IMG/VR virus record: IMGVR_UViG_2737471844_000004
Span: 1-13,401 of that record
Direction: 5' to 3' (one strand)
Origin: a virus
Taxonomy: Duplodnaviria > Heunggongvirae > Uroviricota > Caudoviricetes
DNA: 13,401 bases
Every line of letters starts with the position of its first letter. The first letter of the stretch is position 1. The notes under the pieces were generated by a model. It saw only the letters and a program-made list of their open reading frames with translations. It was not told the DNA's origin and did no database searches. Made by a program: the position numbers and the translations under genes. Of the stretch, positions 1,549 through 13,401 are shown piece after piece.

Positions 1549-1574
1549 GCAAAAAGCCTTACCCGTAGGCTTAA
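1549..1574 (-). terminator. Weak intrinsic terminator closing the island's minus-strand transcription
   Basis: On the minus strand AAGCCT-acgggta-AGGCTT (6-bp stem; plus-strand arms 1554-1559 and 1567-1572) is followed by TTTTTG. It lies about 40 nt after the stop of the 59-aa ORF. The short stem makes it moderate at best. Confidence 0.4.
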
Positions 1575-1611
1575 CGTTTGGCTTGGCTGTAGTCTTACCG
1601 TAACGCTCCGC

Positions 1612-1791: not shown

Positions 1792-1798
1792 GATTTAC

Positions 1799-2082
1799 AC
1801 CTTAGGAAATCTTAGGGGGCTGGTTGACACTTTCCGGCTTAAGACCTTAACAAACCTTAACATCGCAGGTTGACACACTTGACACTTTTTCGCGAAAAAC
1901 CTTATCAAACCTTAGCATTTCTAAGCATGGCAACTTGACACTTTTCGCGATTTTTTTCGGCTTTTTGACGTGGTAAATCTGGCGCAAGGCCAGTAACGGC
2001 GGGGCTTACAGCGAGGTTGACACTTTTTCGCGTTCAGAGTGTAAAGTGTCAACCCGGCAAGCTGCTCAACTTGACACTTTTT
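1799..2082. repeat. Interleaved two-family repeat array; candidate packaging-specificity (cosB/pac-like) or other multi-site protein-binding region
   Basis: Family 1, TTGACAC(TTT): direct at 1824-1833, 1870-1877, 1879-1894, 1935-1949, 2017-2032, 2071-2082; inverted at 2043-2052 (AAAGTGTCAA). Three copies extend to TTGACACTTTT(T)CGCG. Family 2, ACCTTA(N), occurs in pairs phased 10 bp apart: 1799/1809 (second copy ATCTTAG), 1844/1854, 1899/1909. There is also a palindrome CTTAGcatttCTAAG at 1911-1925. The two families alternate along the 295-bp gap between the TerS-like gene and the 59-aa ORF. Confidence 0.85.
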
Positions 2083-2086
2083 GATG

Positions 2087-2614
2087 TCATTGATGGTCTG
2101 ATTTTTCCCATTCAGCTAGGGCGTTTAGCCCGGCTTCACTCCATGATTCCAGTTCATCGGCATAATCACCTGCAACATAGCAGAGTTCGCAACGCAGCAT
2201 ACTAATTGCCAGCCTGGCATTACCTCGCAAATTGTATTGTTCAAAGTAATGCTGCCCGTCGCAATCCTCAAGGCAGATAGCACCATCATCAAGAAATTGC
2301 ACTTCCCAGCCTAATTCCCCGGCTGCATCCAGCACACGCTGCTGTATGCCCTCGTCCGTTGCTGGCGCAGGAATTTTACCGTCTCTGGCCTTAACTGCTT
2401 TCCAGAACTCGCCCCACGTCATTTCCAGCGTTCTCTCTGGCCACATTTCAGAAACTGTGTCTTTTCCCTGTGCTGGTGGGCTGTTCCGCTGCTCTGTCGC
2501 TTCCACATCGATTTTTTTACCGGACATGACCACTTCGCCTTTCTCGATCCAGTCGTAAACTGTCTGGCGGCTTACGCCTTTGTGTTTGGCATATTCTGCC
2601 TTACTCATCAGCAT
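2087..2614 (-). CDS. Terminase-small-subunit-like HTH protein; candidate packaging-redirection (Rpp-like) factor
   Basis: 175-aa ORF. The N-terminus MSKAEYAKHKGVSRQTVYDWIEKGEV is a helix-turn-helix of the type at the N-terminus of lambda Nu1-like small terminases. No large terminase, portal or capsid gene follows. It is the last large gene of the operon and abuts the repeat array. An SD-like GGGTGAG precedes the ATG at 2614. Confidence 0.5.
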   Translation of the reverse strand: MLMSKAEYAKHKGVSRQTVYDWIEKGEVVMSGKKIDVEATEQRNSPPAQGKDTVSEMWPERTLEMTWGEFWKAVKARDGKIPAPATDEGIQQRVLDAAGELGWEVQFLDDGAICLEDCDGQHYFEQYNLRGNARLAISMLRCELCYVAGDYADELESWSEAGLNALAEWEKSDHQ

Positions 2615-2620
2615 TATGAC

Positions 2621-3292
2621 TCACCCTTCTTTTTCCAGTTGAGCCAGCCGCCCGGATATTTCTTCCAGTTTTTCCAGGGCTGGCTTGCAGGCCGCATCAA
2701 TAACGTCCCGGACCATTCCGGCAAGCTGTTCTTCTGCTGTCGGCGTTGTTACTTCCACGCCCGATGGTTTCCCGCCCTTATCCCAAACACCAAGCGGCAC
2801 GAGCGCAACGTGATCGATAAGAAATGGCGTACCCTCAATAAAAAAATTGTCCTCGCCCATTACATCAGGAACTTCTGCCCCACCTGAGGCACCACAAAAC
2901 ACAACCGACGGACTGGTGGATACCTCCCCTCGGGCTTTCTGGATGTAATCGATGATTTCCTGTCCGTAAATCCGGCATACGCCCCACACCTCGTCACCGC
3001 GAATATACGGCAACATGACGGTGCCAATAATGCGCGACCGTTCGCCCACGTCTTCAAGGGTTTTGCTTTCGGGATGGTCGATAATGACGGGTACTCCGGC
3101 GCAACGTTCCAGGAACTGCGGATTGAGATAAGTTTGCGGTGAACGCCAGACAAATTCTTTTTCTTCGGCGCGGTAGGCCATTCCGGTTCCTGTGATACGC
3201 AGGTTAACCAGCCACATGTTGGAAAACTGATAAGGCGACGGTAGCTGTCCGTCCCGAATCTGCTTCGCCGCCTCAATTTCTGTTAAAAGCAT
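2621..3292 (-). CDS. DUF2213/XkdF-like prohead protease or scaffold-like protein (morphogenesis-related candidate)
   Basis: 223-aa ORF. The pattern VPVIIDHP ... IIGTV ... GDEVWGVCRIY ... EVSTSPSVVF ... IDHVALVPLGVWDKGG resembles the DUF2213 layout as I recall it (H..., lS.GY, NH.ALV..GRAG). The C-terminus LEKLEEISGRLAQLEKEG looks coiled-coil. The family call is from recollection only. Confidence 0.45.
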   Translation of the reverse strand: MLLTEIEAAKQIRDGQLPSPYQFSNMWLVNLRITGTGMAYRAEEKEFVWRSPQTYLNPQFLERCAGVPVIIDHPESKTLEDVGERSRIIGTVMLPYIRGDEVWGVCRIYGQEIIDYIQKARGEVSTSPSVVFCGASGGAEVPDVMGEDNFFIEGTPFLIDHVALVPLGVWDKGGKPSGVEVTTPTAEEQLAGMVRDVIDAACKPALEKLEEISGRLAQLEKEG

Positions 3293-3316
3293 AATGTTAT
3301 CCGGTTATAAGCAATA

Positions 3317-3340
3317 AGCCCCGCCAAATCCGGCAGGGCT
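3317..3340 (-). promoter_or_regulatory. Intergenic hairpin between the 192-aa and 223-aa genes (possible attenuator or processing site)
   Basis: Plus strand AGCCCCGCC-aaatcc-GGCAGGGCT: 9-bp stem with one mismatch. On the minus strand it is followed by TTATTGCTTAT, only partly T-rich. Confidence 0.3.
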
Positions 3341-3356
3341 GAACTCAGCACGTTTT

Positions 3357-3935
3357 TCATGCCCCCGCGAGGCTTGCAACGTTAATTTTGACCAGGCGAC
3401 GGGGAGGGATTTTGAAGGCGTTCAGCCAGACGTTCGGATCTCCCTGATATTCAGTAATACGACGACCAGCTTCATCCATTCTTACGGTTTTACCCAAATG
3501 GCCCGGCGTGTTTTCCACGGCCCACTGAGCACTTTCCTGAGCAGCCTTGTAAATCTGATCTTCCAGCACCGCCAGCGTTGCAGAATCTGAAACGGAACGA
3601 ATATCCACATCACTGAATTTTTTAGCCAGCTTCTGTGCGCCAATTAATGCACGTTTGCGGTAATCCATCGACTTTTCACCAGCAAACGGGGCCGGAGCGC
3701 GACGGCCCATATTGCTGTATGCGGAATCCGCTTTAGCCTGGGCTTCTGCCAGTGAGGATTCATCTTCGACTGACGCGACGATGTTTTGATTAGCGTTATC
3801 CTCTTTTATGAAATCCTGTGCGGGGATCGCATTCAGAATTTCGATAATCTCCTGCGGAGTGCTTCCCTGCGACTCTGACAGAGCGTTAACCACCTCCATC
3901 AGTTTTAATCGCAAATCTTCTTTGCTTGCTGGCAT
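3357..3935 (-). CDS. Hypothetical protein (192 aa) of the morphogenesis/packaging operon
   Basis: The track ORF runs 3357-3944 from a GTG. The ATG at 3935 (MPASKEDLRLKLMEV...) has the SD GAGGTG 6-7 nt upstream and is preferred. The N-terminal half is acidic and helical-looking. No family recognised. Confidence 0.65.
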   Translation of the reverse strand: MPASKEDLRLKLMEVVNALSESQGSTPQEIIEILNAIPAQDFIKEDNANQNIVASVEDESSLAEAQAKADSAYSNMGRRAPAPFAGEKSMDYRKRALIGAQKLAKKFSDVDIRSVSDSATLAVLEDQIYKAAQESAQWAVENTPGHLGKTVRMDEAGRRITEYQGDPNVWLNAFKIPPRRLVKINVASLAGA

Positions 3936-3974
3936 TTTTACCACCTCTCTTTTTTCACCAAAAAATCACGACCA

Positions 3975-4148
3975 TCAGGCCGGACGTTCTACGGGATAAA
4001 GCGCCCGCTGCATTAAACGCCGGGCGACCTCATGAATGCTCGGAGCAATCCCCAGCGGAGAATTGCGGCGTTCCTCGTCCTGGATGCGCTGTAATGCTTC
4101 AATCTGATCACGAGCGAGTAAAACGGGTTTCACGCTGGCTTTTCTCAT
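3975..4148 (-). CDS. Small ribbon-helix-helix-like protein, first gene of the morphogenesis/packaging operon
   Basis: The track ORF is 3975-4172. The ATG at 4148 (MRKASVKPVLLARDQIEALQRIQDEE...SIHEVARRLMQRAL) lies 7 nt after AGGAGA; an alternative ATG is at 4154. The strand/helix/helix pattern suggests a CopG/Arc-type fold by eye. Confidence 0.5.
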   Translation of the reverse strand: MRKASVKPVLLARDQIEALQRIQDEERRNSPLGIAPSIHEVARRLMQRALYPVERPA

Positions 4149-4275
4149 AGTCATATCTCCTGAACAAAACAATGATTATGATTGCACAAACTGAAATGAC
4201 GATCTACATCATTGCAATTTATGAAACAATAACGCATGATGATCGCGTTCTTCCCATTGACTTCAATCACCTGCA

Positions 4276-4314
4276 AAAATAAAACCCGCAACACTTCTGG
4301 CTGCGGGTTTTTTA
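4276..4314. terminator. Bidirectional intrinsic terminator
   Basis: AAAAATAAA-ACCCGCA-acacttctggc-TGCGGGT-TTTTTT: 7-bp GC-rich stem (4284-4290 / 4302-4308), with an A-run upstream and a T-run downstream, so a U-tract follows on either strand. Confidence 0.7.
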
Positions 4315-4321
4315 CTGGCAC

Positions 4322-4345
4322 AAAAAAGCCGGGAAAAATCCCGGC
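4322..4345 (-). terminator. Intrinsic terminator right after the PerC-like gene
   Basis: Minus strand GCCGGGA-tttt-TCCCGGC followed by TTTTTT (plus-strand A-run 4322-4327). It begins 6 nt after the stop at 4351 and sits in tandem with the 4276-4314 terminator. Confidence 0.75.
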
Positions 4346-4350
4346 CTCCG

Positions 4351-4638
4351 TCACTGACTGCAATTTTTCGATCCAGGGTATTTCCTGAATGCCTTACCAT
4401 TGGGCTGATGTAATCCCATCCCGGCATGTGCCCGGCTGATGGTTTCGCGCATCTCCCCGAAATTATCCTGCCGTGCTGGTGGGCGTGCTGCCTTGCGGAT
4501 ACATTCCGCGCGACGTTTTGCCGCCTGTTCCCGTGCCTTGTCATCATTCGCCAGCATGATGACCTCAGCCCACCGCGCCGCCGCTCTCCGGTACAGACCA
4601 CGCGCTTCCAGTGCTTCCGCTTTGCTGTCGTGAATCAT
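4351..4638 (-). CDS. PerC-family-like transcriptional regulator
   Basis: 95-aa ORF. 'AEALEARGLYRRAAARWAEVI' matches the conserved LE..G.YRRAA.RW core I associate with PerC/Pch proteins. Its ATG (4638-4636) overlaps the upstream stop as ATGA. Confidence 0.6.
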   Translation of the reverse strand: MIHDSKAEALEARGLYRRAAARWAEVIMLANDDKAREQAAKRRAECIRKAARPPARQDNFGEMRETISRAHAGMGLHQPNGKAFRKYPGSKNCSQ

Positions 4639-5183
4639 GCGCCTGTTTTCTCCTTTGCTGCCCGGCGCTGACGTTTGCGCTTCTCATTCAGCGCCACCAG
4701 CCGCGTTTCTGCGTCCTGTTGTTCCTGTGGTGTCACCTCGCCGCACGGCTGGCCTTTCAGGTCGTAGCGTACCCCACCAGCCATTAAGGCGCGGTAATAG
4801 CGCGGACACTGCGCATAAGATGCCAGCGTCGCACGTAATGCCCCTGGCCCGAATGCCAGCCCCCTGACGGCGAGATCCTGCATCAGGTCGTCGAATATCC
4901 CCACCTTAAGCGGCTTCGGTGCTTCCCGGCTGAATAATTCAGGCCACAACTCAGTGAGGCGGTTAATGCGCCTGCGGTTTTTTCGCTGCCGTTTGGTCAT
5001 ATGCCGCCACGGTGTCGCCCCTGTGGGCTTCTGCTGCGCTTTCTGGTTACCGGGCATCACTTTATGCGCCGATGTGGTTTTATCCTGCTGCTGCTGCTGC
5101 TGCTGCTGCTGCGCCGCCTGCGTCGTTTTCTGCGGCGTGCCGTAAATGCCTTTCGGTTTTCTGTTAATAGTCAGCTTAGTCAT
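4635..5183 (-). CDS. ProQ/FinO-domain RNA-binding protein with an N-terminal poly-Q tract
   Basis: LTELWPELFSREAPKPLKVGIFDDLMQDL ... LRATLASYAQCPRYYRALMAGGVRYDLKGQPCGEV aligns by eye with E. coli ProQ ([22 protein letters not shown] ... [35 protein letters not shown]). The track ORF extends to 5231. The ATG at 5183 (MTKLTINRK) has GGGG 6 nt upstream and is preferred. Confidence 0.75.
   Translation of the reverse strand: MTKLTINRKPKGIYGTPQKTTQAAQQQQQQQQQDKTTSAHKVMPGNQKAQQKPTGATPWRHMTKRQRKNRRRINRLTELWPELFSREAPKPLKVGIFDDLMQDLAVRGLAFGPGALRATLASYAQCPRYYRALMAGGVRYDLKGQPCGEVTPQEQQDAETRLVALNEKRKRQRRAAKEKTGA
5085..5111. repeat. Perfect trinucleotide repeat (CTG)9 on the plus strand = (CAG)9 encoding Q9
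   Basis: Nine uninterrupted CTG units counted directly. In frame, giving QQQQQQQQQ in the ProQ/FinO-like protein. Confidence 0.95.
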
Positions 5184-5236
5184 GCTTTGCCCCATCGTTT
5201 TTACTGATTGTTTCATATCCGGTACTTTCATCTTCT

Positions 5237-5522
5237 GGGTAGAGGGGTAGACGGCGGGTAGATAACAAAAAATAGTCCTCTACCCACTTAACTTAATGAA
5301 AAAAAACAACTTTCACACATTAGGTAGAGGGGTAGACCGTAAAATAGAAAAGTTTGAAACTTACTTTCTTACAATCTGTGTTTTCCTCTCGCTGTATAAA
5401 AAGTTTTTTGAGCGGGGATGTTGTCTACCCCTCTACCCACTTCTCTGAAAGCCTTGTGCTACGAGGGATTCAGCGGGTAGACAATAAAAAATCACCATCT
5501 ACCCTGTGTCTACCCATCTACC
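5237..5522. repeat. Iteron-type replication origin (candidate ori) just downstream of the primase/helicase gene
   Basis: Core GGGTAGA(C): direct at 5237, 5245, 5256, 5323 (GGTAGA), 5330, 5475; inverted (G)TCTACCC at 5279, 5423, 5431, 5498, 5508, 5517. The 16-mer GGGTAGAGGGGTAGAC (5237-5252) has an exact reverse complement at 5423-5438, and its 15-mer recurs at 5323-5337. AT-rich blocks at 5286-5320 and 5338-5410 lie between the iteron clusters. Confidence 0.75.
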
Positions 5523-5539
5523 TGTTACGGGTATTACTC

Positions 5540-7288
5540 TTATAAAAATTCCTCGGTTCTCTCCGTTTGTATAACGTTGGTTTGTATTCGTCCTTTAAAA
5601 CCTCTTGTCAGGTATTCAGCCCCATATTCTCTTGCTGCTGACTTCATGGCCTTACCAAAATCACCGACACTTAATATTTCTTCTTCCCCCATATACTCCA
5701 TAAAGGCGAGATATAGTCTGTACAGGCTTGTACGCGGATTAAGATCAGTTAATCTCTTACCGCCTCCCATCATCATCCCATGCGGTTCATCAAGAAATGC
5801 AAGCGCCGCACATAACCCAATGACAGGATCAGTTTCCTGTTTTATTTTCAGAGCTTCGGCACCGTCGCGCTGCTCCAACAATAATTCCCGTGCTTTTTCT
5901 GGATCGGAAAAGTTAGCCAGTAATCGACGAATAATGACAGGTATTTCCGCCGCTATCTTTTGCGGTAACTCTTTATCCTTTTCGGTCTCCCTTACAATAT
6001 TATCGAACCGAAAAATTACACGTCGACGCGCAACGCCTCCGGCCCGTTCGGTGAATGTCATCGGCACGTTATTTGTTGCCAGCACGACGGACCTGATAAT
6101 TGTTGTGAAACGCTTTTCATATTTCGGGTTAATTTCAACTGGATCTCCACCCGTTATTTTTTTGATGCCGGATCCTTCACCTGTATATTTCGGCTGGTCT
6201 GCCAGGACAATAAGACGACTTCCGACAACCTGCGCACGCCCGCCAGCATCATCAAGCGATGTCATTTCAGCGCTTACCGTGTTCTGTTTCCCTGCCAGAA
6301 GGGTGGCTATGTGCGTGATTGTGCTCTTGCCGCTCCCGCCTTCCCCTGTGGCCTCAATAAACATCTGCCAGTCGTACCGGTTCGCCATAATCATGTACAG
6401 CGCGGCGCATATACGCATCATCTTTCGCGGGTCTTTTCCTGCGGCGTGATCAAGCCATTTATGAAAGTTTGGCGCGTTGTCGCGGATGTTCTCCCCTGGT
6501 ACTGGTGGCGTGTACTCAATGCCGTTATGCGTGGTGATCCAGTTATCCGGCGAGTGCGGGGAAAATTCGCCAGTTTTCATGTCAAGCACGCCATTAGAGA
6601 ACGGCAATAAATCACCTGACGGTTCCCCCATTGGCCTGGCCATAACTTTTAAAGCATCCACAGCATTACTTATTGCTCTCCGACTAAACGATGTTCCGTT
6701 TTCTTCGTAAATAGCCACCATTTCACGACTAAGATCCAGTGTGCTTACCGGAACCCAAAAATCATCGCGCCAGACGTGGACAACCTCACTCTCCTGATTC
6801 ATTGCTACATCCTGAAATCGTTCAGCTAAAAGTTTTGCCCTTTGGCTGTCCGCCATTCTGGAAAGAGATATTTTGTGTTTTTTCTCGGTCCTTCCTGACA
6901 GAATTTCTCCGCGCTCAGCCTGTTCGCGGATCCGTTGCAGGTAGTCGCGCCAGTTCTCCGGTTCCTGGTCGGTGATGCCTTTGTATAATTTCGCCTCCTG
7001 TACGCCAGCCAGCGCCAGCTTTTCAGCGATAGTATTGATCTGGATTGGCTCTATCTCCCCCGCGATATAGACACGCGCAAAACGGCGTTTCTCGTCAATA
7101 ATGCGGATATTCGCCAGGTCTGCCAGTTGCTTTGGCCCCAGGTAAACAGGAGGCACGTTATCGCCGTGTTTTCGTCCTTCACTTTCAATCCAGTGTTGAG
7201 CATGGGCGTAAGCATCCGTCCCGGCAAAAATGATTACCTCAGTGAATTTATCCTTCGGCTGATATTTTAGACTCGGTGCGTTTTTCAC
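5540..7288 (-). CDS. P4-family phage/plasmid primase-helicase (D5-type NTPase), replication initiator
   Basis: 582-aa ORF. Walker A GEGGSGKS is encoded at 6346-6323; a Walker-B-like LIVLADQP lies downstream. The overall pattern resembles the C-terminal domain of P4 alpha / D5-family primases. GTG start at 7288 with the SD GGAGG 6 nt upstream, overlapping the upstream stop as GTGA. An iteron ori follows. Confidence 0.85.
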   Translation of the reverse strand: MKNAPSLKYQPKDKFTEVIIFAGTDAYAHAQHWIESEGRKHGDNVPPVYLGPKQLADLANIRIIDEKRRFARVYIAGEIEPIQINTIAEKLALAGVQEAKLYKGITDQEPENWRDYLQRIREQAERGEILSGRTEKKHKISLSRMADSQRAKLLAERFQDVAMNQESEVVHVWRDDFWVPVSTLDLSREMVAIYEENGTSFSRRAISNAVDALKVMARPMGEPSGDLLPFSNGVLDMKTGEFSPHSPDNWITTHNGIEYTPPVPGENIRDNAPNFHKWLDHAAGKDPRKMMRICAALYMIMANRYDWQMFIEATGEGGSGKSTITHIATLLAGKQNTVSAEMTSLDDAGGRAQVVGSRLIVLADQPKYTGEGSGIKKITGGDPVEINPKYEKRFTTIIRSVVLATNNVPMTFTERAGGVARRRVIFRFDNIVRETEKDKELPQKIAAEIPVIIRRLLANFSDPEKARELLLEQRDGAEALKIKQETDPVIGLCAALAFLDEPHGMMMGGGKRLTDLNPRTSLYRLYLAFMEYMGEEEILSVGDFGKAMKSAAREYGAEYLTRGFKGRIQTNVIQTERTEEFL

Positions 7289-7575
7289 TTCTTACCTCCC
7301 GCAACCAACATTGCCCGGATTTTTTTTATATTCGTGGCTGCACGTCTCGCCACTGCCTGTTGTTTGTTTTCCACCAGAATAAAATCACGATCAAACTGAC
7401 GGCGCGGCATTACGCAGTCATATTCGTAAGCCTCACGGCGGTAGGTGATATTGCCTGGCGTAACGTGACGAATAACCACCCGTCCCCCGCGTCTGGTGTC
7501 CCGGAAAATATCACCGGGGCGGATTTCAGGCCGAGAGAGGCCGCTGGCAGTAAAGCCAGAATTTTTCTTTTTCAT
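7285..7575 (-). CDS. Small basic protein, possibly DUF4222-like
   Basis: 96-aa ORF. 'IRPGDIFRDTRRGGRVVIRHVTPGNITYRREAYEYDCVMPRRQFDRDFILV' resembles the DUF4222 pattern I recall from genes just upstream of primases in P4-like prophages. Confidence 0.45.
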   Translation of the reverse strand: MKKKNSGFTASGLSRPEIRPGDIFRDTRRGGRVVIRHVTPGNITYRREAYEYDCVMPRRQFDRDFILVENKQQAVARRAATNIKKIRAMLVAGGKK

Positions 7576-7579
7576 GGTT

Positions 7580-7780
7580 TTATTTTCCTGTCAGCAGTTC
7601 CGGTTTTATTTCCGCACGAATACAAAGTTCAGAAAAAAATTCAGGAGAACCAACAATCTCATTACTTTTCAGTCGGCATTGTGATTTCACTTTCCCTTTA
7701 TCCAGGTAAACCAGTACGCGTCCGGTGAAATCATCTGGCACATTAAGCACTACGGGTACATGCACTTCATGATTATGCAT
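7580..7780 (-). CDS. Hypothetical protein with one copy of a ~45-aa 'D-FTG' repeat domain
   Basis: 66-aa ORF. Its ATG overlaps the upstream stop as ATGCATAA. The domain FTGRVLVYLDKGKVKSQCRLKSNEIVGSPEFFSELC aligns with both repeats of the 7999-8364 product. Confidence 0.6.
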   Translation of the reverse strand: MHNHEVHVPVVLNVPDDFTGRVLVYLDKGKVKSQCRLKSNEIVGSPEFFSELCIRAEIKPELLTGK

Positions 7781-8006
7781 GGCTTACATCCTCCGTGAAT
7801 TTTCTTCTGTAACGCGCCTCTGCCACATATTCCGCATAGTCCGACGCAATACTAAGAATCATTTCACCCTCTGACTTGTAGCCACTGGTATTGATAAGAA
7901 AATATGCAGCTTTCATCATGTCAGCAACGCTCAACAATGCGCCCGATGTATCTTCCGGTGCGCCATCAAATTCCCGTTTCAGGGAATTAAAACGATCATC
8001 ACGCAT
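7773..8006 (-). CDS. Hypothetical small acidic protein
   Basis: 77-aa ORF, overlapping both neighbours by 8 nt. No family recognised. Confidence 0.55.
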   Translation of the reverse strand: MRDDRFNSLKREFDGAPEDTSGALLSVADMMKAAYFLINTSGYKSEGEMILSIASDYAEYVAEARYRRKFTEDVSHA

Positions 8007-8364
8007 GTTTACCCCCCTGAATGACCTGATAACCGCAACTGGTCAGCAACTCGATAAATTCCGGCAGTGTGCCGAAACAGCAATCATCACGCAGCCGTTC
8101 GCAGGATACCTCGACGCCGTTTTCGTAGTGACTCACCATACGTCCGGTAAAATGCAGATCATCATCGTGATGGCTCGTTGACGGCTTAATCAGTCGCGCA
8201 CGTTCCGCCAGTTCCAGCAATGCTTCAACGCTTCCGGCAATTGCACCATCCGGCAGGTGGTAATTACGCACTATGCGCCCGTTCTCCACATGGACCAGTA
8301 GCTGCCCGGTAAATTTCTCGTCAAACTGAATGCTGTTAAGGTCAGAAATTGACAGGTTATGCAT
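7999..8364 (-). CDS. Hypothetical protein with two tandem 'D-FTG' repeat domains
   Basis: The track ORF extends to 8382. The ATG at 8364 (MHNLSISD...) overlaps the upstream stop as ATGCATAA and is preferred. Repeats: FTGQLLVHVENGRIVRNYHLPDGAIAGSVEALLEL and FTGRMVSHYENGVEVSCERLRDDCCFGTLPEFIELL. Confidence 0.65.
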   Translation of the reverse strand: MHNLSISDLNSIQFDEKFTGQLLVHVENGRIVRNYHLPDGAIAGSVEALLELAERARLIKPSTSHHDDDLHFTGRMVSHYENGVEVSCERLRDDCCFGTLPEFIELLTSCGYQVIQGGKHA

Positions 8365-8581
8365 GGTGCACCTCCTGCACATCAGCCATGATAATTTTTC
8401 CGGCCTTATCCAGTGCCTGATCGGCTTTTAGCTGCACAAATGCTAAATAATGGGAGATGCATTCTGATTCTCTGGCTGCGTGTTTATGCGCCACACCAGC
8501 GATAGCAGAAATCTCAATAAGTGAATCCATCAGCGTTTTGATAGCGTCTACCGCTGCATCAGGCCATGTTGCATTACACAT
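8357..8581 (-). CDS. Hypothetical small protein
   Basis: 74-aa ORF. Its ATG at 8581 overlaps the upstream stop as ATGTGTAA. No family recognised. Confidence 0.55.
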   Translation of the reverse strand: MCNATWPDAAVDAIKTLMDSLIEISAIAGVAHKHAARESECISHYLAFVQLKADQALDKAGKIIMADVQEVHHA

Positions 8582-8939
8582 GTTCCACCTCCTGGCGAAT
8601 ACGGGCGGCGAATACCATCACGCAGCCATCAGGAGATTGCTGACGTGCTTCCTGTTCGCTGGTGGCCTCGATGTGAATTACGCGCGGTTGTGCCGTGCTC
8701 AGGGCGATAAAACGCCAGATAAAATTGTTCTCGCATTTCTGAATAAACAGCGTGTTTTCTTCGCGCCCTTTCCATGTTGCCGAGATATAGCCCATGTCAT
8801 TGAGCATCTCGCAGGCATCAACCAGCGTATCAGCAGCTACGTGTACAGTGTTTTTACCGTCAGCTATGCAATCACGGTGCACCGCCAGGAAGGTGTATAT
8901 AAATTTAGGGTGAGTTTGGGTATGCTGTGTTCCAGCCAT
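8574..8939 (-). CDS. First gene of the replication operon; possibly Icd-like (host cell division inhibitor-like)
   Basis: This is the 3' part of the 510-aa track ORF. An internal ATG at 8939 (MAGTQHTQTHPKFIYTFLAV..., 121 aa) has the SD GAGG 8 nt upstream and lies about 90 nt downstream of a good sigma70 promoter. 'HPKFIYTFLAV' resembles N-termini of proteins annotated Icd-like in P4-like prophages; this is weak recollection. Confidence 0.5.
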   Translation of the reverse strand: MAGTQHTQTHPKFIYTFLAVHRDCIADGKNTVHVAADTLVDACEMLNDMGYISATWKGREENTLFIQKCENNFIWRFIALSTAQPRVIHIEATSEQEARQQSPDGCVMVFAARIRQEVEHV

Positions 8940-8969
8940 AATCGTTACCTCATTTAACGGTTTGGTTAG

Positions 8970-9003
8970 ACGCCCCGCTACTGCCGCAAACAGTTCGGGG
9001 CGT
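8970..9003 (-). promoter_or_regulatory. Leader hairpin in the 5' UTR of the replication operon
   Basis: ACGCCCCG (8970-8977) and CGGGGCGT (8996-9003) form an 8-bp GC-rich stem with an 18-nt loop, between the predicted TSS (~9030) and the ATG at 8939. No U-tract on either strand. Confidence 0.35.
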
Positions 9004-9028
9004 TGTCGTTTACATCCTCTTACTGAGG

Positions 9029-9104
9029 TGTGATTTAAATTAAATTTAACTGAATCACAGGTCAAGTATTTTTTGTGATTCTTTTTTGTGTATACTGAAT
9101 CACA
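9029..9104. promoter_or_regulatory. Twin palindromic operators in the divergent switch region
   Basis: O1 is TGTGATT-N17-AATCACA (9029-9059). O2 is TGTGATTC-N15-GAATCACA (9074-9104). Both span 31 bp and are offset by exactly 45 bp; CTGAATCACA is repeated at 9050 and 9095. O1 covers the minus-strand promoter. O2 covers the putative plus-strand -10 TATACT (9091-9096). Confidence 0.6.
9037..9065 (-). promoter_or_regulatory. Sigma70-type promoter for the minus-strand replication operon
   Basis: On the minus strand: -35 TTGACC (9065-9060), a 17-nt spacer, then -10 TAATTT (9042-9037). It overlaps operator O1. Confidence 0.5.
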
Positions 9105-9126
9105 TCTTTTGTTTAGGAGAATGCAC

Positions 9127-9432
9127 ATGGCAAAAAACACTATCAACGACAAATCAAAACAGATTTCAATTCGTATCCCACATGATGCTTTTGAAGGCAT
9201 GGAATCCGTAAAACTGGACGGTGAAAGCAACGCCGGATTCATAGTAACCGCCATGCGCGGTGAGATCGCCCGCCGCCAGGCAGAAGGAAGCGGAGAAAAT
9301 CCCCTGGTTTCTTCGCTCGATGCGCTGGCGCAGGTGGAAAAAATCGGAGTCAAAGCTGCCGAGGAGATCGGGCAGCTCGTCACCGTCGCACGTGAAGAAC
9401 TCCAGCGCCGCAAGGCCAAAGAATCAGAATAA
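9127..9432 (+). CDS. Small DNA-binding regulator (ribbon-helix-helix-like N-terminus, coiled-coil C-terminus); candidate switch repressor
   Basis: The track ORF starts at 9088. The ATG at 9127 (MAKNTINDKSKQISIRIPHDAFEGMESVKLD...) lies 6 nt after AGGAGA (9115-9120). 'QISIRIPHDAFEGM' looks like an RHH beta-strand plus helix. It is divergent from the replication operon, with the operators in between. Confidence 0.65.
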   Translation: MAKNTINDKSKQISIRIPHDAFEGMESVKLDGESNAGFIVTAMRGEIARRQAEGSGENPLVSSLDALAQVEKIGVKAAEEIGQLVTVAREELQRRKAKESE

Positions 9433-9489
9433 TAACTATCATCGCCGTGGTGTGAGGAACTCCGGCGCATTGCTTTACAGGTACACAGA

Positions 9490-9684
9490 ATGACCAACAA
9501 AGAATCAACCAATACACCATCACCGGCACGGAAAAGACGGCGCAGAAAGATAGAGCACGAATCAGAAAGATTCGCGCCATGTGCTTTTGCCCTTGAGCAA
9601 TTCCTTAAAGAGTACAGGCGCACAAAAATGGGATCGCATACCTGGAAAACATCGCGGCATGGCAATGTTAAAGAGCATGAATAG
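9490..9684 (+). CDS. Possible small basic protein (very uncertain)
   Basis: 64-aa ORF downstream of the RHH-like gene (MTNKESTNTPSPARKRRRRKIEHE...). There is no convincing SD, and it lies antisense to the long minus-strand frame. Confidence 0.2.
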   Translation: MTNKESTNTPSPARKRRRRKIEHESERFAPCAFALEQFLKEYRRTKMGSHTWKTSRHGNVKEHE

Positions 9685-10106
9685 CCCACCAGCAAGCCAG
9701 CACACTGATCACATTGCCCACCAGCCGCAAATCTGGCATTGTTGGCAATGTGTTCAAGTGTGTAGCTTTCCCACTGGTGGCCCTCTGCAGTCGCCTTTGT
9801 TTTATCCAGAACGAAATCAGACATCAGATTGATCAGCACCTGGTGACCTGACAAAATCGCATCAGTCACGCCACCAGCAAAATTTTTTGCTTTCCGGACA
9901 GCGTGGCCAACGGCATTTTGCAGCGAAATATTCTGCATTTCTGGCGTGCTGTAGTAACGGTGATCAGTGCCTTCACTCTGTGCGACCACAACGCTATAAT
10001 CTGCCTCGTAGACAGTAAGCAATATGGCGCAGTAGGCTATTCGTTCACAAAGGCGCTCCGGCAACGGGGCGCTTTCTCTTTTTGTAACGGTCAGAGCGTT
10101 ACACAT
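9685..10106 (-). CDS. Coding-looking 5' segment coupled to the antirepressor gene; 3' end unresolved (no stop until 8574)
   Basis: The ATG at 10106 overlaps the upstream stop as ATGTGTAA. The first ~135 residues (MCNALTVTKRESAPLPERL...YTLEHIANNARFAAGG) have protein-like composition, after which the frame turns Ser/Cys/Arg-rich. The lower coordinate is a judgement, not a stop codon. Confidence 0.3.
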
Positions 10107-10899
10107 GGCTGTTTTCCTCCATGCGACGGGCTAACCAACGCTGCGAAAGGCGAATTAATTCAGCTTTCCGCTGGTGGTAGTCCTGGCCTAACTCAATCAG
10201 CGTGATATTGCTCTGCTCAAGGTAAGAAAGGTGCTCAAGCTGCAACACGCTCATGTGGTCGCGTGGTTCACCTGTAATGCCGTTCGCCTGCGCCCACTGT
10301 TTTGCAGTCATGCCACCCAGCACGATACGCGCCAGCATGTTCGCTTCCGTGGTGTAGTGGTGCTGGAGTGTGTTTTTACCCAGTTCAGCCCGGTACGCCT
10401 CCAGCGCGGCACACATTGGCTTAAAGTAGCTGGCAACTGTGATACGGGCTTTCAGTTCCCGGCGTAACGCTGCGGAACGTACAGGCGCAACCTTGTGTAG
10501 CTCCTCCTCGCATTTGATAAAGTACTGACGAACGGCGCGCCCCTGTTCGGTGCGCTCGACCATCGCCAGTTCTTTCGCCATGTTGATAGTGCTCAGGTAG
10601 TCGTGCTCTACACGTTGGCGAGATTTTGCGCTCACCGGATTGGGGGAGGTCAAATTTTCTACGAATTCAAAATCCACGCCCTTTTTAAATCCGTACTCAT
10701 CAATGCGTCCTTTAATCCAAGTTGTGAAATCACGCTTCACACCCAGCGCCTTATGCAACGCTCTGGCGCTAACAATATTGGTTTCACGCCCGCCAATAAC
10801 GCCGGAAATAACCGGGATAATTTCGCCGAAATTTTGTTGGCTCTGGTTTTCAGGCCGAACGAAGCCCTGCCCCTGTACGGGCGTTTTTCGCAGTTTCAT
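10099..10899 (-). CDS. Phage antirepressor-type protein (AntA/Rha-like N-terminal domain)
   Basis: 266-aa ORF. 'IVSARALHKALGVKRDFTTWIKGRIDEYGFKKGVDFEF ... DYLSTINMAKELAMVERTEQGRAVRQYFIKCEEEL' matches the AntA/AntB antirepressor pattern as I recall it (ARdLh..Lgv..dFs.Wik.rI..y.f..g.Df ... dy.l.l.mAKel.Mve....G...R.YFI..E). The SD AGGAG lies 5 nt upstream. Confidence 0.75.
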   Translation of the reverse strand: MKLRKTPVQGQGFVRPENQSQQNFGEIIPVISGVIGGRETNIVSARALHKALGVKRDFTTWIKGRIDEYGFKKGVDFEFVENLTSPNPVSAKSRQRVEHDYLSTINMAKELAMVERTEQGRAVRQYFIKCEEELHKVAPVRSAALRRELKARITVASYFKPMCAALEAYRAELGKNTLQHHYTTEANMLARIVLGGMTAKQWAQANGITGEPRDHMSVLQLEHLSYLEQSNITLIELGQDYHQRKAELIRLSQRWLARRMEENSHV

Positions 10900-10977
10900 A
10901 AAAACTCCTGCTATCGAATTAAGTTACTTTTTATTTGCTGGTGGATAGCTGGGGCTTCTGGCCCCGTAGCTGTTTTA

Positions 10978-11196
10978 TCAGGCTGATGTGTTTCGGCGTT
11001 CTTCCAGCCAGCGATTAACCTCTACCGCATCGAATGCAGTGCTTTTCTCACCCAGTTTGATGGGCTTAGGCATCTTCCCGCTACGCACCCAACGATCGAG
11101 CGTTGATAAGCTGGTACCCAGCAATTCAGCCAGGCGATAGCGGCGGATATAGCCAGTTGCAGGGATTGCGGTTTGAAGTATTGGTTGGTTTTTCAT
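10978..11196 (-). CDS. alpA: AlpA-family transcriptional regulator/excisionase-like HTH protein
   Basis: 'YIRRYRLAELLGTSLSTLDRWVRSGKMPKPIKLGEKSTAFDAVEVNRWLEERR' fits the AlpA (Phage_AlpA) pattern. The track ORF extends to 11289, but that upstream part looks non-coding. Likely starts are the ATG at 11196 or 11205. Confidence 0.8.
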   Translation of the reverse strand: MKNQPILQTAIPATGYIRRYRLAELLGTSLSTLDRWVRSGKMPKPIKLGEKSTAFDAVEVNRWLEERRNTSA

Positions 11197-11308
11197 ATGC
11201 CCCATTACCTTTGTTGTTGGTTTGTGATTCGTAATAGGGGCATTAAATAACAAATGAAATGATGTGTGTGTGAGTTTTAGAAAAAACACTGTGACTTTTC
11301 TTATTTCA

Positions 11309-12091
11309 CTATCTAAAACGCTCTCGCCAGCTTTTCCAAGTGTTCTTATCTGGTTGTGGGATTACAATGCCTTTTTGAGCACCTATTTGTGCAATTTTTT
11401 TATTTAACTTGTTAGGCGGCAAAGATATTATCTCATTGTCTGTTAATCCGGCAATTCTTAATAATCCATATATCATTTTAAATTGATGTATTGTTAATCT
11501 TGGTAACTTGTGATTTTCTTTTTTTATAGTGTTGTTTATGGAGTAAATTGGAAATCCATTTGTTATTGATTTATAAAGGTTGTCAATGTGCTCTCTGGTT
11601 ATTAATAATGAATCAGGTGTAATCTTAATGTTGCCGCTTGTTTTTGCATGGCATGAAAAAATAAATGTGGGATTCGCAGTGCGACGTGAAAGCGGTATGG
11701 ATGTATTCATAGAGATAGTTTTGTTTCTTACTATAGTCTCTTGAATATCAAAAACTCCAGAAACCTTTGCCTCAAAAATAACACCATTTTCTTTTATTTC
11801 ATCACTATATTCATGAATAATTATGCCAAGAGAGGAAATTTCTTTTTTGATGAGAAAAGAAATAAAATCAATATAGTCTTCATCCTTTGGCCATGTAAAA
11901 TCACGATAACCAAAATACCCCTCACAGTAAGCATTTTTTATTTTTGTGGCAAAATTAATTCTGTTAATATCCTGCCAATGCCATAAATCATCTATCTCAC
12001 ATTCTAAAATTTGAGCTGCTCTATCTAAAGAGCAGAATTCTAATGGAGGTAATTGTTTTTTTTGCCATATTGTTTCATTAATATTTGTCAT
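11309..12091 (-). CDS. AT-rich orphan protein (260 aa) between int and alpA; function unknown
   Basis: Complete ORF, about 33% G+C in a hand-counted 60-nt sample versus about 50% or more in the island core. No family recognised. The N-terminal 'LEFCSLDRAAQILECEIDDLWHWQ' and C-terminal 'LTDNEIISLPPNKLNKKIAQIGAQKG' look loosely HTH-like. Confidence 0.7.
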   Translation of the reverse strand: MTNINETIWQKKQLPPLEFCSLDRAAQILECEIDDLWHWQDINRINFATKIKNAYCEGYFGYRDFTWPKDEDYIDFISFLIKKEISSLGIIIHEYSDEIKENGVIFEAKVSGVFDIQETIVRNKTISMNTSIPLSRRTANPTFIFSCHAKTSGNIKITPDSLLITREHIDNLYKSITNGFPIYSINNTIKKENHKLPRLTIHQFKMIYGLLRIAGLTDNEIISLPPNKLNKKIAQIGAQKGIVIPQPDKNTWKSWRERFR

Positions 12092-12147
12092 GATTGCACT
12101 ACCGTTATGAAAAAATATATTCGTTAATGAATTAGCCTTAATGTCTA

Positions 12148-13401
12148 TTATTTATTAGATTGCGTGATGTCAGAACATATCATGTTTTCTAAATTCACCA
12201 GCAAATCAGTCCACTGTGCCAGCGCCGCTTTGCGCTCATCAAAATATTGATGGCGGTTATAAATGCCCTCTACGCCTTTTATGCGGTGGTTAAGGCATCG
12301 TTCAGCAACGATCGGGTCAACTCCCAATGCTGCTAAATGTGTTCGTGCTGTTCGCCGGAAGTCGTGAATTGTAAAGTTGGGGACGTTCGGCATTTCTGCT
12401 CTGACTTTTGCCAATGCAACAGGAAGGGTGCTTTCCTGGATGTGAGGGATCATTCTGTGCTGCATTTTTCTGGCAGGTAATACCCATGCGCTATTGCATG
12501 AAAATGTGTGCAATTCTCGCAACCATTCTATGGTCGCTGGTGGTAATGGTATGTCGATAGCATCGCCATTTTTAGTTCGTTGTTCTGGTAGATGCCAAAT
12601 CGCGCCATCTAAGTCGAATTCATCCCACCTGGCGGCGCATAACTCCATTTTTCTGACACACAATGCTAAGAGCAACTTAAAGGTTAATTCGTTCTGGCGG
12701 CTGAATCCTTTGGCTTTACGCATGGCCTGAAAAAATTGGATTAATTCGTCACGGTTCAGCCAGCGATCACGAGATAATTCTTTCCCACCAGCATCTGATA
12801 CTTCAAAAGCTGAGCAGGGGTTAACCTCCAAAGCAAGGCGTTTAATACCGTAGTCAAATATTCGACGTGTCCACCGAAGAACGTCAGTAGCAATTGTTGG
12901 AGCGCCTCTATCAACAATGCTTTTAAGCATGGCATCAATATGGCGTGGTTTTACATCTTCAACCTTCATGTGGCCTATGGCAGGATTTATGTCTTTATCA
13001 ATGCGCCTGCGGAGAATATCTGGGTGTTTCCATCGGGGAAGTATTTGCCGTGCAAAGTATTCGGCGGCAAGTTCAGAAACATGCAGCGCGTTTTTTTCAG
13101 CTTCTATTTTTGCCAGTGCTTCGGCTTTACGCTGCTGTTTTTCTGCGGCTACGTCATATCCCAAAGCAACTCGTGCGGAAAGTTCTTTTGCCAGTTCCCT
13201 GGCTTTTGATAACGATAATTCAGAATATGAACCAATAAGCATGGCACGAGATTTTCCTGCCAGTTTATATCGAAACCGCCATGTCGGGGATCTATCCACC
13301 TCTCTATACCGGAGATATAGCCCACCACCATCAGCACGACCTTCGAAATGTTCTCCGGCTTTTATCCATGCGCGGATCTGCATATCTGTGAGTTTTGGCA
13401 T
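12148..13401 (-). CDS. int: P4-type tyrosine integrase (DUF4102-like N-terminal domain)
   Basis: 417-aa ORF starting at the window edge. The N-terminus 'LTDMQIRAWIKAGEHFEGRADGGGLYLRYR...WRFRYKLAGK' is typical of P4-family integrases. Catalytic-type motifs are present: CVRKMEL (Arg), HDFRRTARTH (His-x-x-Arg), LNH, GIYNRHQY (Tyr). Confidence 0.9.
   Translation of the reverse strand: MPKLTDMQIRAWIKAGEHFEGRADGGGLYLRYREVDRSPTWRFRYKLAGKSRAMLIGSYSELSLSKARELAKELSARVALGYDVAAEKQQRKAEALAKIEAEKNALHVSELAAEYFARQILPRWKHPDILRRRIDKDINPAIGHMKVEDVKPRHIDAMLKSIVDRGAPTIATDVLRWTRRIFDYGIKRLALEVNPCSAFEVSDAGGKELSRDRWLNRDELIQFFQAMRKAKGFSRQNELTFKLLLALCVRKMELCAARWDEFDLDGAIWHLPEQRTKNGDAIDIPLPPATIEWLRELHTFSCNSAWVLPARKMQHRMIPHIQESTLPVALAKVRAEMPNVPNFTIHDFRRTARTHLAALGVDPIVAERCLNHRIKGVEGIYNRHQYFDERKAALAQWTDLLVNLENMICSDITQSNK

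What the first reader, a model, noticed from the sequence alone, without database searches (positions are those of the whole stretch)
11309..12091. Compositionally foreign 260-aa orphan between integrase and alpA: second cargo or immunity locus
Seen: this ORF is far more AT-rich than its flanks (int and alpA) and matches no family I recognise. Two readings. (a) It is a single-gene accessory or defence cargo in a second variable slot. (b) It is a master-repressor analogue: in staphylococcal SaPIs the repressor Stl sits next to int, and this protein has loosely HTH-like segments at both ends. Either way it is the least explained gene in the island core.
Basis: partly seen in the sequence, partly recalled or inferred. 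Interest (0 to 1): 0.6.

Follow-up and report, generated by a model that had tools for sequence, protein, structure and literature searches.

The report
Hypervariable satellite gene between int and alpA
The AT-rich "orphan" is real, but it belongs to a sizeable unnamed protein family found almost only between the integrase and alpA genes of phage satellites, where its fast-changing middle domain makes it a good candidate for the still-unknown link between helper phage and satellite induction.

Summary
ORF 11309-12091 (- strand, 260 aa) has 31% GC, against 46% for int and 52% for alpA, and it matches no Pfam, NCBIfam or PADLOC model.

It is not a true orphan. A profile search finds 391 cluster representatives of 260-330 aa. 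In 13 of 17 loci examined (E. coli to Aeromonas, many att sites) the gene lies int -> X -> alpA on one strand. It was absent from 50,697 phage records.

- a conserved N-terminal winged helix of the MerR/Xis/AlpA type, unusually acidic;
- a hypervariable alpha/beta middle domain;
- a conserved basic four-helix C-domain.
No enzymatic domain was detected.

X diverges far faster than its neighbours (int 90% and alpA 91% identical, X 26%). Two genera carry tandem paralogues. Other islands hold unrelated AT-rich genes in the slot, or nothing.

Best reading (about 0.37): a non-enzymatic, phage-sensing regulator of the island's alpA/int switch, which works like SaPI Stl but is not related to it. Main rival (about 0.3): a position-bound anti-phage or interference accessory protein. 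The function is inferred, not shown. The slot is already known as an accessory site; the family is new.

The parts
11309..12091 (-). Gene X (260 aa; WP_001529476.1 in RefSeq). It is a member of an unannotated family specific to phage satellites.
   Evidence: ORF. It is 100% identical to an annotated 'hypothetical protein' in E. coli A17. The family is defined.
11954..12067 (-). N-terminal domain (residues about 9-46): a beta-alpha-alpha-beta winged helix of the MerR/Xis/AlpA type. It is the most conserved part and is net acidic.
11552..11953 (-). Hypervariable alpha/beta middle domain (residues about 47-180). It is the proposed specificity or sensor domain.
   Evidence: AF2 pLDDT is 64-92. Fold matches are weak only, to ferredoxin-like/ACT folds and Cas6. 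Mean pairwise identity is 15%; the only invariant residue is the Gly of the SG(V/L)(F/W) motif.
11498..11551 (-). Predicted disordered linker (residues about 181-198).
   Evidence: pLDDT is below 50 for residues 184-197. Length and sequence vary across the family.
11312..11497 (-). C-terminal basic four-helix domain (residues about 199-260; R.T.HQ..MI..LL...G ... KG....PDK.TW..WR..F). It is a candidate nucleic-acid-binding or oligomerisation domain.
   Evidence: AF2 pLDDT is 81-91. Net charge is +7; family mean is +2.8. Mean identity is 33%. No Pfam or PDB relative was found; the PPR hits come from a single hairpin motif summed over designer repeats.
12092..12147 (-). The 56-bp int-X spacer. 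No terminator was found, so X is probably co-transcribed with int.
   Evidence: The terminator scan found none on the - strand. In relatives the spacer is 0-134 bp, and the unrelated PU-1 slot gene overlaps the int stop codon.
12148..13401 (-). Tyrosine integrase (417 aa), immediately upstream of X. It integrates between yicC and dinD.
   Evidence: Pfam hits to Arm-DNA-bind_3, Phage_int_M and Phage_integrase. Chromosomal context comes from strain A17.
11270..11289 (-). Imperfect palindrome or weak hairpin (GTGTTTTTTCTAAAACTCAC) just after the X stop codon, about 75 nt upstream of the alpA start. It could be an operator or a leaky terminator.
   Evidence: It is unique in the window. Related GAG(A)TTTT-N-AAAACTC elements sit at the same place in L005, L008, L017 and L019. 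Loci with the other C-domain type carry a different hairpin with compensatory changes.
11199..11241 (-). alpA leader stem-loop (GCCCCTATTAC-N22-GTAATGGGGC) that ends 2 nt before the alpA ATG and covers the Shine-Dalgarno region.
   Evidence: MFE is -17.2 kcal/mol, z = -3.06. In 9 islands, 5 of 9 predicted pairs show compensatory double changes. No Rfam family matches.
10978..11196 (-). alpA (72 aa), the AlpA-family activator and master switch of Gram-negative PICIs, immediately downstream of X.
   Evidence: Pfam Phage_AlpA 1.4e-8 and HTH_17 3.8e-8. Its role as activator is taken from PMC6092414.

Best explanation
X is a non-enzymatic, three-domain protein that belongs to the regulatory end of AlpA-type phage satellites (PICI-like islands).

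Proposed mechanism:
- X is made together with the integrase while the island sits in the chromosome.
- Its two conserved end domains anchor it to a conserved partner. The ends are an AlpA/Xis/MerR-like winged helix and a basic four-helix domain. The partner would be DNA in the int-X-alpA control region and/or AlpA or Int themselves.
- Its hypervariable middle domain recognises a phage-derived protein.
- Binding of that phage protein changes X's hold on the alpA/int switch. Which phage can induce the island, or be blocked by it, would then depend on the X allele.

In function this resembles the SaPI repressor Stl. In sequence, fold and gene orientation it is unrelated to Stl.

Shown here: the family, its positional lock, the domain architecture, the fast and modular divergence, and the absence of an enzymatic domain.

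Inferred: DNA or partner binding, phage sensing, and any effect on alpA.
For: 1. Positional lock. 13 of 17 distinct loci have int -> X -> alpA on one strand. They span E. coli (two alleles), Leclercia, Raoultella, Pluralibacter, Dickeya, Citrobacter, Klebsiella, Enterobacter, Serratia, Yersinia, Pectobacterium and Aeromonas, at different att sites and with integrases only 23-28% identical to each other.

2. Satellite-specific. Three diverse members gave no tblastn hit in 50,697 phage records. One 'plasmid' hit is an excised PICI circle with the same gene order.

4. A specificity-module signature. L008 vs L009: int 90%, alpA 91%, X 26%. Window vs E. coli 64A:C: int 86%, alpA 68%, X 24%. Domain identities are N 46%, middle 15%, C 33%. 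Tandem paralogues X1-X2 (31-32% identical) occur in Leclercia and Pluralibacter.

5. Gene arrangement. X lies directly upstream of the alpA control region, which holds a palindrome and a covarying leader hairpin. No terminator separates X from int.

6. An open question it would answer. [quoted passage not shown] The inducer is unidentified, and whether a repressor exists is described as 'unclear' (PMC6092414).
Against: 1. The slot is not always filled by this family. Unrelated proteins sit there in PU-1, JNU/TUM9757 and K-12 CP4-57 (yfjH, on the opposite strand). PapRG-04-4, which shares the same island core, has no slot gene at all. X therefore cannot be a universal master regulator.

2. In EcCICFT073 the wording 'ORF3' for the gene after alpA suggests that int is followed directly by alpA. 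Helper-dependent alpA induction was nevertheless seen there (PMC6092414). This is my inference from the text; I could not locate the island to check it.

3. The N-domain's second helix carries an invariant Asp and usually a Glu where AlpA has Ser/Thr/Arg. The domain is net acidic, which argues against classical DNA binding by that domain.

4. AT-richness, rapid turnover and duplication are also hallmarks of accessory or defence cargo. The interval is described as an accessory-gene site (PMC10085698).

5. Three Klebsiella species carry a lone copy without int or alpA nearby.

Confidence: 0.37

Rival explanations
1. X is an accessory anti-phage or interference protein carried in a satellite hotspot. 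Its variable middle domain binds a protein of competing or helper phages and blocks that protein directly, by sequestration rather than by an enzymatic effector. This would protect the host and the satellite. It would not regulate alpA or int.
For: - The int-regulator interval is a recognised accessory site in PICIs (PMC10085698). PICIs and PICMIs carry defence genes (PMC10803314).
- The gene is strongly AT-rich and turns over or diverges far faster than its flanks.
- Tandem duplication occurs.
- The slot can be empty or hold unrelated genes.
- The same island carries a PADLOC candidate system, PDC-M04, at its other end.
- EcCIMP1 gives superinfection immunity with no known defence system, and has an unexplained gene in the same slot (PMC11773190).
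Against: - X has no PADLOC match and no effector-type domain.
- Defence genes normally appear in many genomic contexts. This family is almost confined to one interval of one kind of element and is absent from 50,697 phage records.
- The conserved AlpA-like N-domain and basic C-domain are not explained by a pure sequestration role.
Confidence: 0.3
2. X is an architectural or recombination-directionality accessory factor for the neighbouring integrase. It would be an Xis/AlpA-like domain protein that shapes the attL/attR or attP complexes and biases integration against excision.
For: - The N-domain has the excisionase/AlpA fold.
- The gene lies immediately downstream of int and is probably co-transcribed with it.
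- The C-domain is basic.
Against: - X does not co-vary with int. Integrases 86-90% identical are paired with X proteins 23-26% identical, and the same family accompanies integrases only 23-28% identical at unrelated att sites.
- AlpA already supplies the Xis-like function.
- The hypervariable middle domain has no obvious role in this model.
- Some islands with the same int type lack X.
Confidence: 0.1
3. X is a silenced or decaying passenger with no current function. It would be AT-rich DNA, bound by H-NS, that simply persists next to int.
For: GC is very low. The gene is rare in E. coli, in 12 of 5,426 complete genomes.
Against: - The reading frame is intact in all 12 E. coli copies at 99.6-100% identity.
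- Length, domain order and specific residues (C31, D35, Gly of the SG motif, Q, W) are conserved across hundreds of clusters and several bacterial families. That implies purifying selection on the end domains.
Confidence: 0.05

Closest known systems
SaPI Stl / Gram-positive PICI Rpr master repressors
   Same: Encoded next to int in a phage satellite. Highly divergent between otherwise similar islands. The proposed logic is the same: a constant anchoring part plus a variable part that recognises a helper-phage protein, which sets helper specificity (role of Stl from PMC6092414).
   Different: No sequence or fold relation. X lacks an XRE-type HTH and has a MerR/Xis-type winged helix instead. X is co-directional with alpA, not divergently transcribed from the operon it would control. 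Gram-negative PICIs are switched on by an activator (AlpA). X is absent from some islands.
AlpA / excisionase (HTH_17, Phage_AlpA) and MerR-family winged-helix domains
   Different: No Pfam hit, and hhalign probability is only 21%. The second ('recognition') helix is acidic, with an invariant Asp. There is no MerR-type long dimerisation helix. X carries two extra domains that AlpA/Xis proteins lack.
Accessory and defence hotspots of phage satellites (P4 psu-int hotspot; PICI 5' and 3' accessory regions; PICMI prim-fis hotspot)
   Same: A fixed interval of a satellite that holds AT-rich, rapidly exchanged, mostly uncharacterised genes. In this window's island family it is occupied by different families or left empty.
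   Different: Known hotspots hold many unrelated, context-promiscuous defence systems. Here one family with conserved ends recurs at the same position across genera and is essentially not found elsewhere.
Other occupants of the int-alpA interval: EcCIMP1_002, YfjH of CP4-57, WP_001059729.1 (PU-1), WP_000565286.1 / WP_069915395.1 (thrW islands)
   Same: Same position, also AT-rich, also without a known function. The thrW-island family also diverges much faster than its flanks (67% against 99.5-100%).
   Different: No significant sequence similarity to X. The PU-1 protein shows only a weak, in-register match to the C-domain (9.9 bits). yfjH is on the opposite strand.

Membership tests
AlpA / excisionase (Pfam PF05930 Phage_AlpA, PF12728 HTH_17) | Significant match to the family HMM | tested here: not met
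   X has no Pfam hit at E <= 0.1. None of 60 family members matched either model at E <= 0.01.
AlpA / excisionase (Pfam PF05930 Phage_AlpA, PF12728 HTH_17) | Winged-helix fold beta-alpha-alpha-beta of about 50-70 residues | tested here: met
AlpA / excisionase (Pfam PF05930 Phage_AlpA, PF12728 HTH_17) | Profile-level homology to AlpA proteins of the same islands | tested here: inconclusive
   hhalign of the X N-domain alignment against an alignment of 13 AlpA proteins is in register over the HTH, but probability is 20.8% and E = 1.1e-3.
AlpA / excisionase (Pfam PF05930 Phage_AlpA, PF12728 HTH_17) | Basic or polar DNA-contacting second helix; small single-domain protein | tested here: not met
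   The second helix is C-E-(I/V)-x-D-(L/I)-x-H-W, with invariant D35 and E32 in 22 of 37 members. The domain's net charge is -3, against +6 for AlpA. X is 260 aa with three domains.
MerR-family transcription regulators | N-terminal winged HTH followed by a long antiparallel coiled-coil dimerisation helix; match to PF00376 or PF13411 | tested here: not met
SaPI Stl / PICI Rpr master repressors | XRE/cI-type HTH DNA-binding domain | tested here: not met
   No HTH_3, HTH_XRE or related Pfam hit. The fold of the N-domain is MerR/Xis type.
SaPI Stl / PICI Rpr master repressors | Divergently transcribed from the operon it represses (stl <-> str) | tested here: not met
   int, X and alpA are all on the - strand, in the order int -> X -> alpA.
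SaPI Stl / PICI Rpr master repressors | Represses island genes; repression is lifted by binding a helper-phage protein | not testable with these tools
   This needs reporter assays, EMSA and interaction assays.
Known anti-phage defence systems (PADLOC-DB v2) | Match to a defence-protein HMM | tested here: not met
   X gave 0 PADLOC families at E <= 1. The same search readily detected PDC-M04A/B at the island's other end.
Known anti-phage defence systems (PADLOC-DB v2) | Measurable protection against phage | not testable with these tools
   This needs plaque and liquid-infection assays.
Variable accessory slot of PICI-type satellites (int-regulator interval) | Interval between int and the regulator whose content differs between otherwise related islands | tested here: met
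   Islands sharing the core 1550-10982 carry different int-slot-alpA blocks. Slot contents seen: X, a 216-aa protein, a 253/265-aa family, or nothing. The interval is named as an accessory site in PMC10085698.
The X family itself (unnamed) | About 250-330 aa; N-terminal PLEYC..RAA.LL.C..D..HW block; SG(V/L)(F/W) motif; L.ITR..IE helix; usually an R.T..Q..MI..LL...G...KG...P..D..T...W C-terminal block | tested here: met
   The window protein has all of these blocks. It scores 255.6 bits (E 8e-77) against the HMM of alignment A3, of which it is itself the first member. The independent support is the match to relatives at 23-38% identity.

The most novel reading that the evidence does not exclude
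The X family is the missing helper-phage sensor of AlpA-type (Gram-negative) phage satellites. In this reading it is a modular protein made with the integrase. Its conserved ends hold the alpA/int switch off, or occlude AlpA. Its hypervariable middle domain binds a specific helper-phage protein to release the switch. The X allele, and tandem X1-X2 pairs, would then set each island's helper range. X would be the functional counterpart of Stl, evolved independently from an AlpA/Xis-like scaffold.
Probability: 0.22. Interest if true: 0.8.

Novelty: new variant of a known kind. Interest (0 to 1): 0.55.

Why it matters
How helper phages switch on Gram-negative PICIs is unresolved. [quoted passage not shown]

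This family gives a concrete candidate that can be cloned. It is position-locked, it has no enzymatic domain, its N-domain resembles AlpA, and its middle domain is swapped or diversified while int and alpA stay 90% identical. If it is a sensor or regulator, it would explain helper specificity and allow host-range prediction for satellites that move virulence and defence genes.

If it is instead an interference or defence protein, it would be a new effector-less anti-phage family specific to satellites. Either way, several hundred 'hypothetical proteins' in Enterobacterales would gain a defined family, an architecture and a context.

Tried and rejected
- Family libraries. Pfam, NCBIfam, PADLOC and PHROGs on X gave nothing usable. 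Pfam on 60 members and on 26 isolated C-domains gave only scattered noise.

- PDB sequence profiles. The full-length and C-domain profiles hit designer PPR proteins only. I rejected these: each repeat scores 3-9 bits, and the E-value comes from summing identical repeats. At most this is a helix-hairpin motif resemblance.

- Structure prediction and fold searches. AF2 with 5 sequences was unusable (pLDDT 41); it was redone with 31 sequences. Foldseek against PDB and against BFVD gave no hit at E <= 1e-3. The ACT, S6 and Cas6 resemblances of the middle domain are too weak to use. afdb50 was unavailable.

- Locus scans. The search for related loci with the broad alignment failed for lack of a conserved stretch. 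The narrower alignment returned only 6 loci.

- Other slot occupants. I tested whether they are hidden family members. PU-1 gives 9.9 bits to the C-domain, which is suggestive only. The JNU/TUM9757 family and YfjH give no match.

- EcCICFT073. I tried to locate it in CFT073 to see whether its slot is empty. Two 45-kb fetches missed the island, so that point rests on the paper's wording only.

- Promoters and Rfam. The promoter scan in the AT-rich gene is not above background in any informative way. Rfam has no hit for the alpA leader.

- Literature. The Cell 2022 paper on PICI immune systems is not in the library. No paper mentions WP_001529476.

- Readings rejected. An RDF for int, because X does not co-vary with int. 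An Stl homologue, because fold and orientation are wrong. Recent foreign acquisition as the sole cause of low GC, because the bias is family-wide and slot-wide.

Full report
**The window**

The 13.4-kb window is a phage satellite of the PICI type. All core genes are on the - strand:
- integrase, 12148-13401;
- the ORF in question, 11309-12091, called X below;
- alpA, 10978-11196;
- an AntA-type gene, 10099-10899;
- a D5-type primase, 5540-7288;
- a DUF2213 capsid-module gene, 2621-3292;
- an HTH/TerS-like gene, 2087-2614.

In E. coli A17 the same int-X-alpA block sits between yicC and dinD. At the far end of the window, on the + strand, is a DUF3800 gene pair that matches the PADLOC candidate system PDC-M04A/B.

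**Checking the observation**

- X is 260 aa with an ATG start.
- Its GC is 31.2% (GC3 24.5%), against 45.8% for int and 51.6% for alpA.
- It has no Pfam, NCBIfam or PADLOC match, and only a noise-level PHROG hit.

**Not a true orphan**

A word-indexed search of 5.8 billion proteins finds only four relatives at 36-38% identity, in Leclercia, Raoultella, Pluralibacter and one metagenome. The gene itself occurs in 12 of 5,426 complete E. coli genomes at 99.6% identity or more.

A profile built from those five sequences was searched exhaustively against 1.84 billion cluster representatives. It finds 391 proteins at E <= 1e-3 and 157 at E <= 1e-10. Nearly all are 250-330 aa and match through the N-terminal and C-terminal blocks. 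Every source name attached to these proteins reads 'hypothetical protein'. None of 60 members has a consistent Pfam hit.

X is therefore a member of a real, sizeable family that has not been described.

**Where the family lives**

I recovered the genomic context of 17 distinct loci.

- In 13 loci the order is int -> X -> alpA on one strand. These are two E. coli alleles, Leclercia, Raoultella, Pluralibacter, Dickeya, Citrobacter, an excised 22.9-kb K. pneumoniae PICI circle deposited as a 'plasmid', Enterobacter soli, Serratia, Yersinia, Pectobacterium and Aeromonas caviae.
- They sit at many different att sites (yicC, thrW/proA, der, folD and others). Their integrases are as little as 23-28% identical to the window's.
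- In Pantoea there is an upstream int, a truncated X and no alpA.
- Three Klebsiella species have a lone copy.
- Leclercia and Pluralibacter carry two tandem paralogues, 31-32% identical to each other, between int and alpA.
- Three diverse members gave no tblastn hit in 50,697 phage records.

**Architecture**

With a 31-sequence alignment AlphaFold2 gives a usable model, with mean pLDDT 78.3 and pTM 0.59. Its parts are:
- residues about 9-46: a beta-alpha-alpha-beta unit, pLDDT 90-95;
- residues about 47-180: a beta-rich alpha/beta domain;
- residues 184-197: a disordered linker;
- residues 199-260: a four-helix domain, pLDDT about 81-91.

A profile-profile comparison with the islands' own AlpA proteins aligns the HTH in register, but weakly: probability 21%, E = 1e-3.

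The middle domain has only sub-threshold resemblance to ferredoxin-like, ACT and Cas6 folds. The C-domain has no Pfam or PDB relative. There is no viral structural match.

No enzymatic or effector-type domain is detectable. The only invariant residue in the middle domain is a glycine.

**An unexpected detail in the N-domain**

The N-domain is net acidic: -3 in the window protein, family mean -2.0. Its second helix reads C-E-(I/V)-x-D-(L/I)-x-H-W, with invariant Cys31 and Asp35. AlpA has Ser/Thr/Arg at the corresponding positions.

The C-domain is basic: +7 in the window protein, family mean +2.8.

From this I infer that the C-domain is the likelier nucleic-acid binder. The N-domain may be a repurposed winged helix used for protein contacts. 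This is inference from sequence only.

**Evolutionary behaviour**

X changes much faster than its flanks.

| Comparison | int | alpA | X |
|---|---|---|---|
| Pluralibacter vs Dickeya | 90% | 91% | 26% |
| Window vs Pluralibacter | 88% | 58% | 38% |
| Window vs E. coli 64A:C | 86% | 68% | 24% (different C-terminal domain) |

Across 37 members, mean pairwise identity is 46% in the N-domain, 15% in the middle domain and 33% in the C-domain.

Every member is 7-15 GC points below its own int and alpA. The low GC is therefore a property of the family, and of the slot, rather than a sign of one recent import.

**The slot as such**

The island core (window 1550-10982) has matches in about 2,000 E. 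coli genomes. Several of the best-matching islands carry a different int-slot-alpA block. In those blocks the slot holds:
- a 216-aa protein that overlaps the int stop codon (PU-1, TW10598);
- a 253/265-aa family in thrW islands;
- nothing at all in PapRG-04-4.

In the thrW islands the slot protein is 67% identical between two islands whose int is 99.5% and whose alpA is 100% identical. K-12 CP4-57 has yfjH in the slot, on the opposite strand. All of these genes are AT-rich and unannotated.

[quoted passage not shown] The EcCIMP1 study treated the gene in this position as a possible accessory gene of unknown function (PMC11773190).

**Control region next to X**

- No terminator separates int from X.
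- Just after the X stop codon there is an imperfect palindrome or weak hairpin (11270-11289). It recurs in related form in several islands. Loci with the other C-domain type have a different hairpin there, with compensatory changes.
- Directly before the alpA start codon lies a stem-loop (11199-11241) that covers the Shine-Dalgarno region. Its arms covary between islands: 5 of 9 pairs have double compensatory changes. MFE is -17.2 kcal/mol and z = -3.06. No Rfam family matches.

This hints that alpA translation is held in check on read-through transcripts. I did not pursue it further.

**Interpretation**

Shown: the family, its positional lock, the three-domain architecture without an effector, and the modular hyper-divergence.

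Best-supported mechanism (confidence about 0.37): a phage-sensing, non-enzymatic regulator of the alpA/int switch. The conserved ends anchor it to a conserved partner, either DNA of the control region or AlpA/Int. The variable middle domain recognises a phage protein. This works like SaPI Stl, but X fails the Stl membership tests on fold and on gene orientation. It also cannot be universal, because some related islands lack it.

Main rival (about 0.3): a position-bound interference or defence accessory protein that acts by sequestering a phage protein.

Minor rivals: an integrase accessory factor (about 0.1), disfavoured because X does not co-vary with int; and a silenced passenger (about 0.05), disfavoured by the conserved ends.

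**Novelty and interest**

The slot is known and the family is not. I rate this as a new variant of a known kind, with interest 0.55.

It offers a concrete candidate for the unresolved question of how helper phages trigger Gram-negative PICIs. PMC6092414 leaves the repressor 'unclear' and the inducer unidentified. The functional claim, however, is entirely inferential.

Noticed in passing
window 11199-11241 (- strand), just 5' of the alpA ATG at 11196: Stem-loop GCCCCTATTAC-N22-GTAATGGGGC that covers the alpA Shine-Dalgarno region. The arms covary across islands (for example CCCGTAAC/GTTACGGG, CACGTAAC/GTTACGTG, CCCTGTAAC/GTTACAGGG). 5 of 9 pairs show compensatory double changes. MFE is -17.2 kcal/mol, z = -3.06. 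No Rfam family matches. It is a candidate translational control element for the satellite's master activator.
   Followed up: partly
window 11270-11289 (- strand); L005, L008, L017, L019; L010, L026, L028: Each subtype of X is followed, right after its stop codon, by its own palindrome or hairpin. One type is GAG(A)TTTT-N-AAAACTC. The other is GAAACGGGC...GTCCGTTTC, with compensatory changes. It could be an operator, or a weak terminator that insulates alpA from int-X read-through.
   Followed up: partly
window 1-762 (+) and 753-1244 (+): A DUF3800 protein and an overlapping 163-aa partner match the PADLOC candidate defence system PDC-M04A (8e-98) and PDC-M04B (9e-74). Windows within the pair read 32-41% GC. 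They lie at the att-distal end of the island, which is the island's other cargo slot.
   Followed up: partly
L005 8001-9569 (Leclercia) and L008 8001-9572 (Pluralibacter): Two tandem paralogues of X, 31-32% identical to each other, lie between int and alpA. The second copy's C-domain is the one most like the window protein's.
   Followed up: partly
L004 14810-15571 (JNU) vs L020 14267-15064 (TUM9757) and L022: A second, unrelated slot family (MIDIHAELNEYKK..., 253/265 aa, with a coiled-coil segment) occupies thrW-site islands. It is only 67% identical between islands whose int is 99.5% and whose alpA is 100% identical. Fast divergence is therefore a property of the slot and not only of X.
   Followed up: partly
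L012 = NZ_CP033626.1, whole record (22,859 bp): A K. pneumoniae 'plasmid' is in fact a circular PICI-like satellite with int -> X homologue -> alpA. A block of about 4.5 kb is assembled twice, which suggests an excised, replicating or concatemeric satellite captured by sequencing. Several other 19-22-kb Klebsiella 'plasmids' also hit X.
   Followed up: no
L013 5998-6879, L015, L016 (Klebsiella spp.): Lone family members without int or alpA nearby. In K. pneumoniae the copy lies between wbuC and cynR, next to a prophage integrase on the other strand. These may be relics of a decayed island or a domesticated copy.
   Followed up: no
window 10982 and 1550 (block boundaries): Homology with the many E. 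coli islands that share the core stops at window 10982, just past the 3' end of alpA (10978). The int-X-alpA block therefore appears to be exchanged as a unit, relative to the replication and packaging core. The replication gene also swaps: D5 primase here, RepA helicase in A17.
   Followed up: partly
window 8574-10106 (- strand): A 510-aa ORF with no counterpart in the annotation of related islands. In those islands this stretch holds a + strand YlcI/YnfO gene, an Icd-like gene and small hypothetical genes. The long ORF is probably spurious.
   Followed up: no
window 4635-5231 (- strand): This ORF corresponds by position to the gene annotated ProQ/FinO-family in related islands. It carries a run of nine glutamines (QQQQQQQQQ) near its N-terminus.
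   Followed up: no
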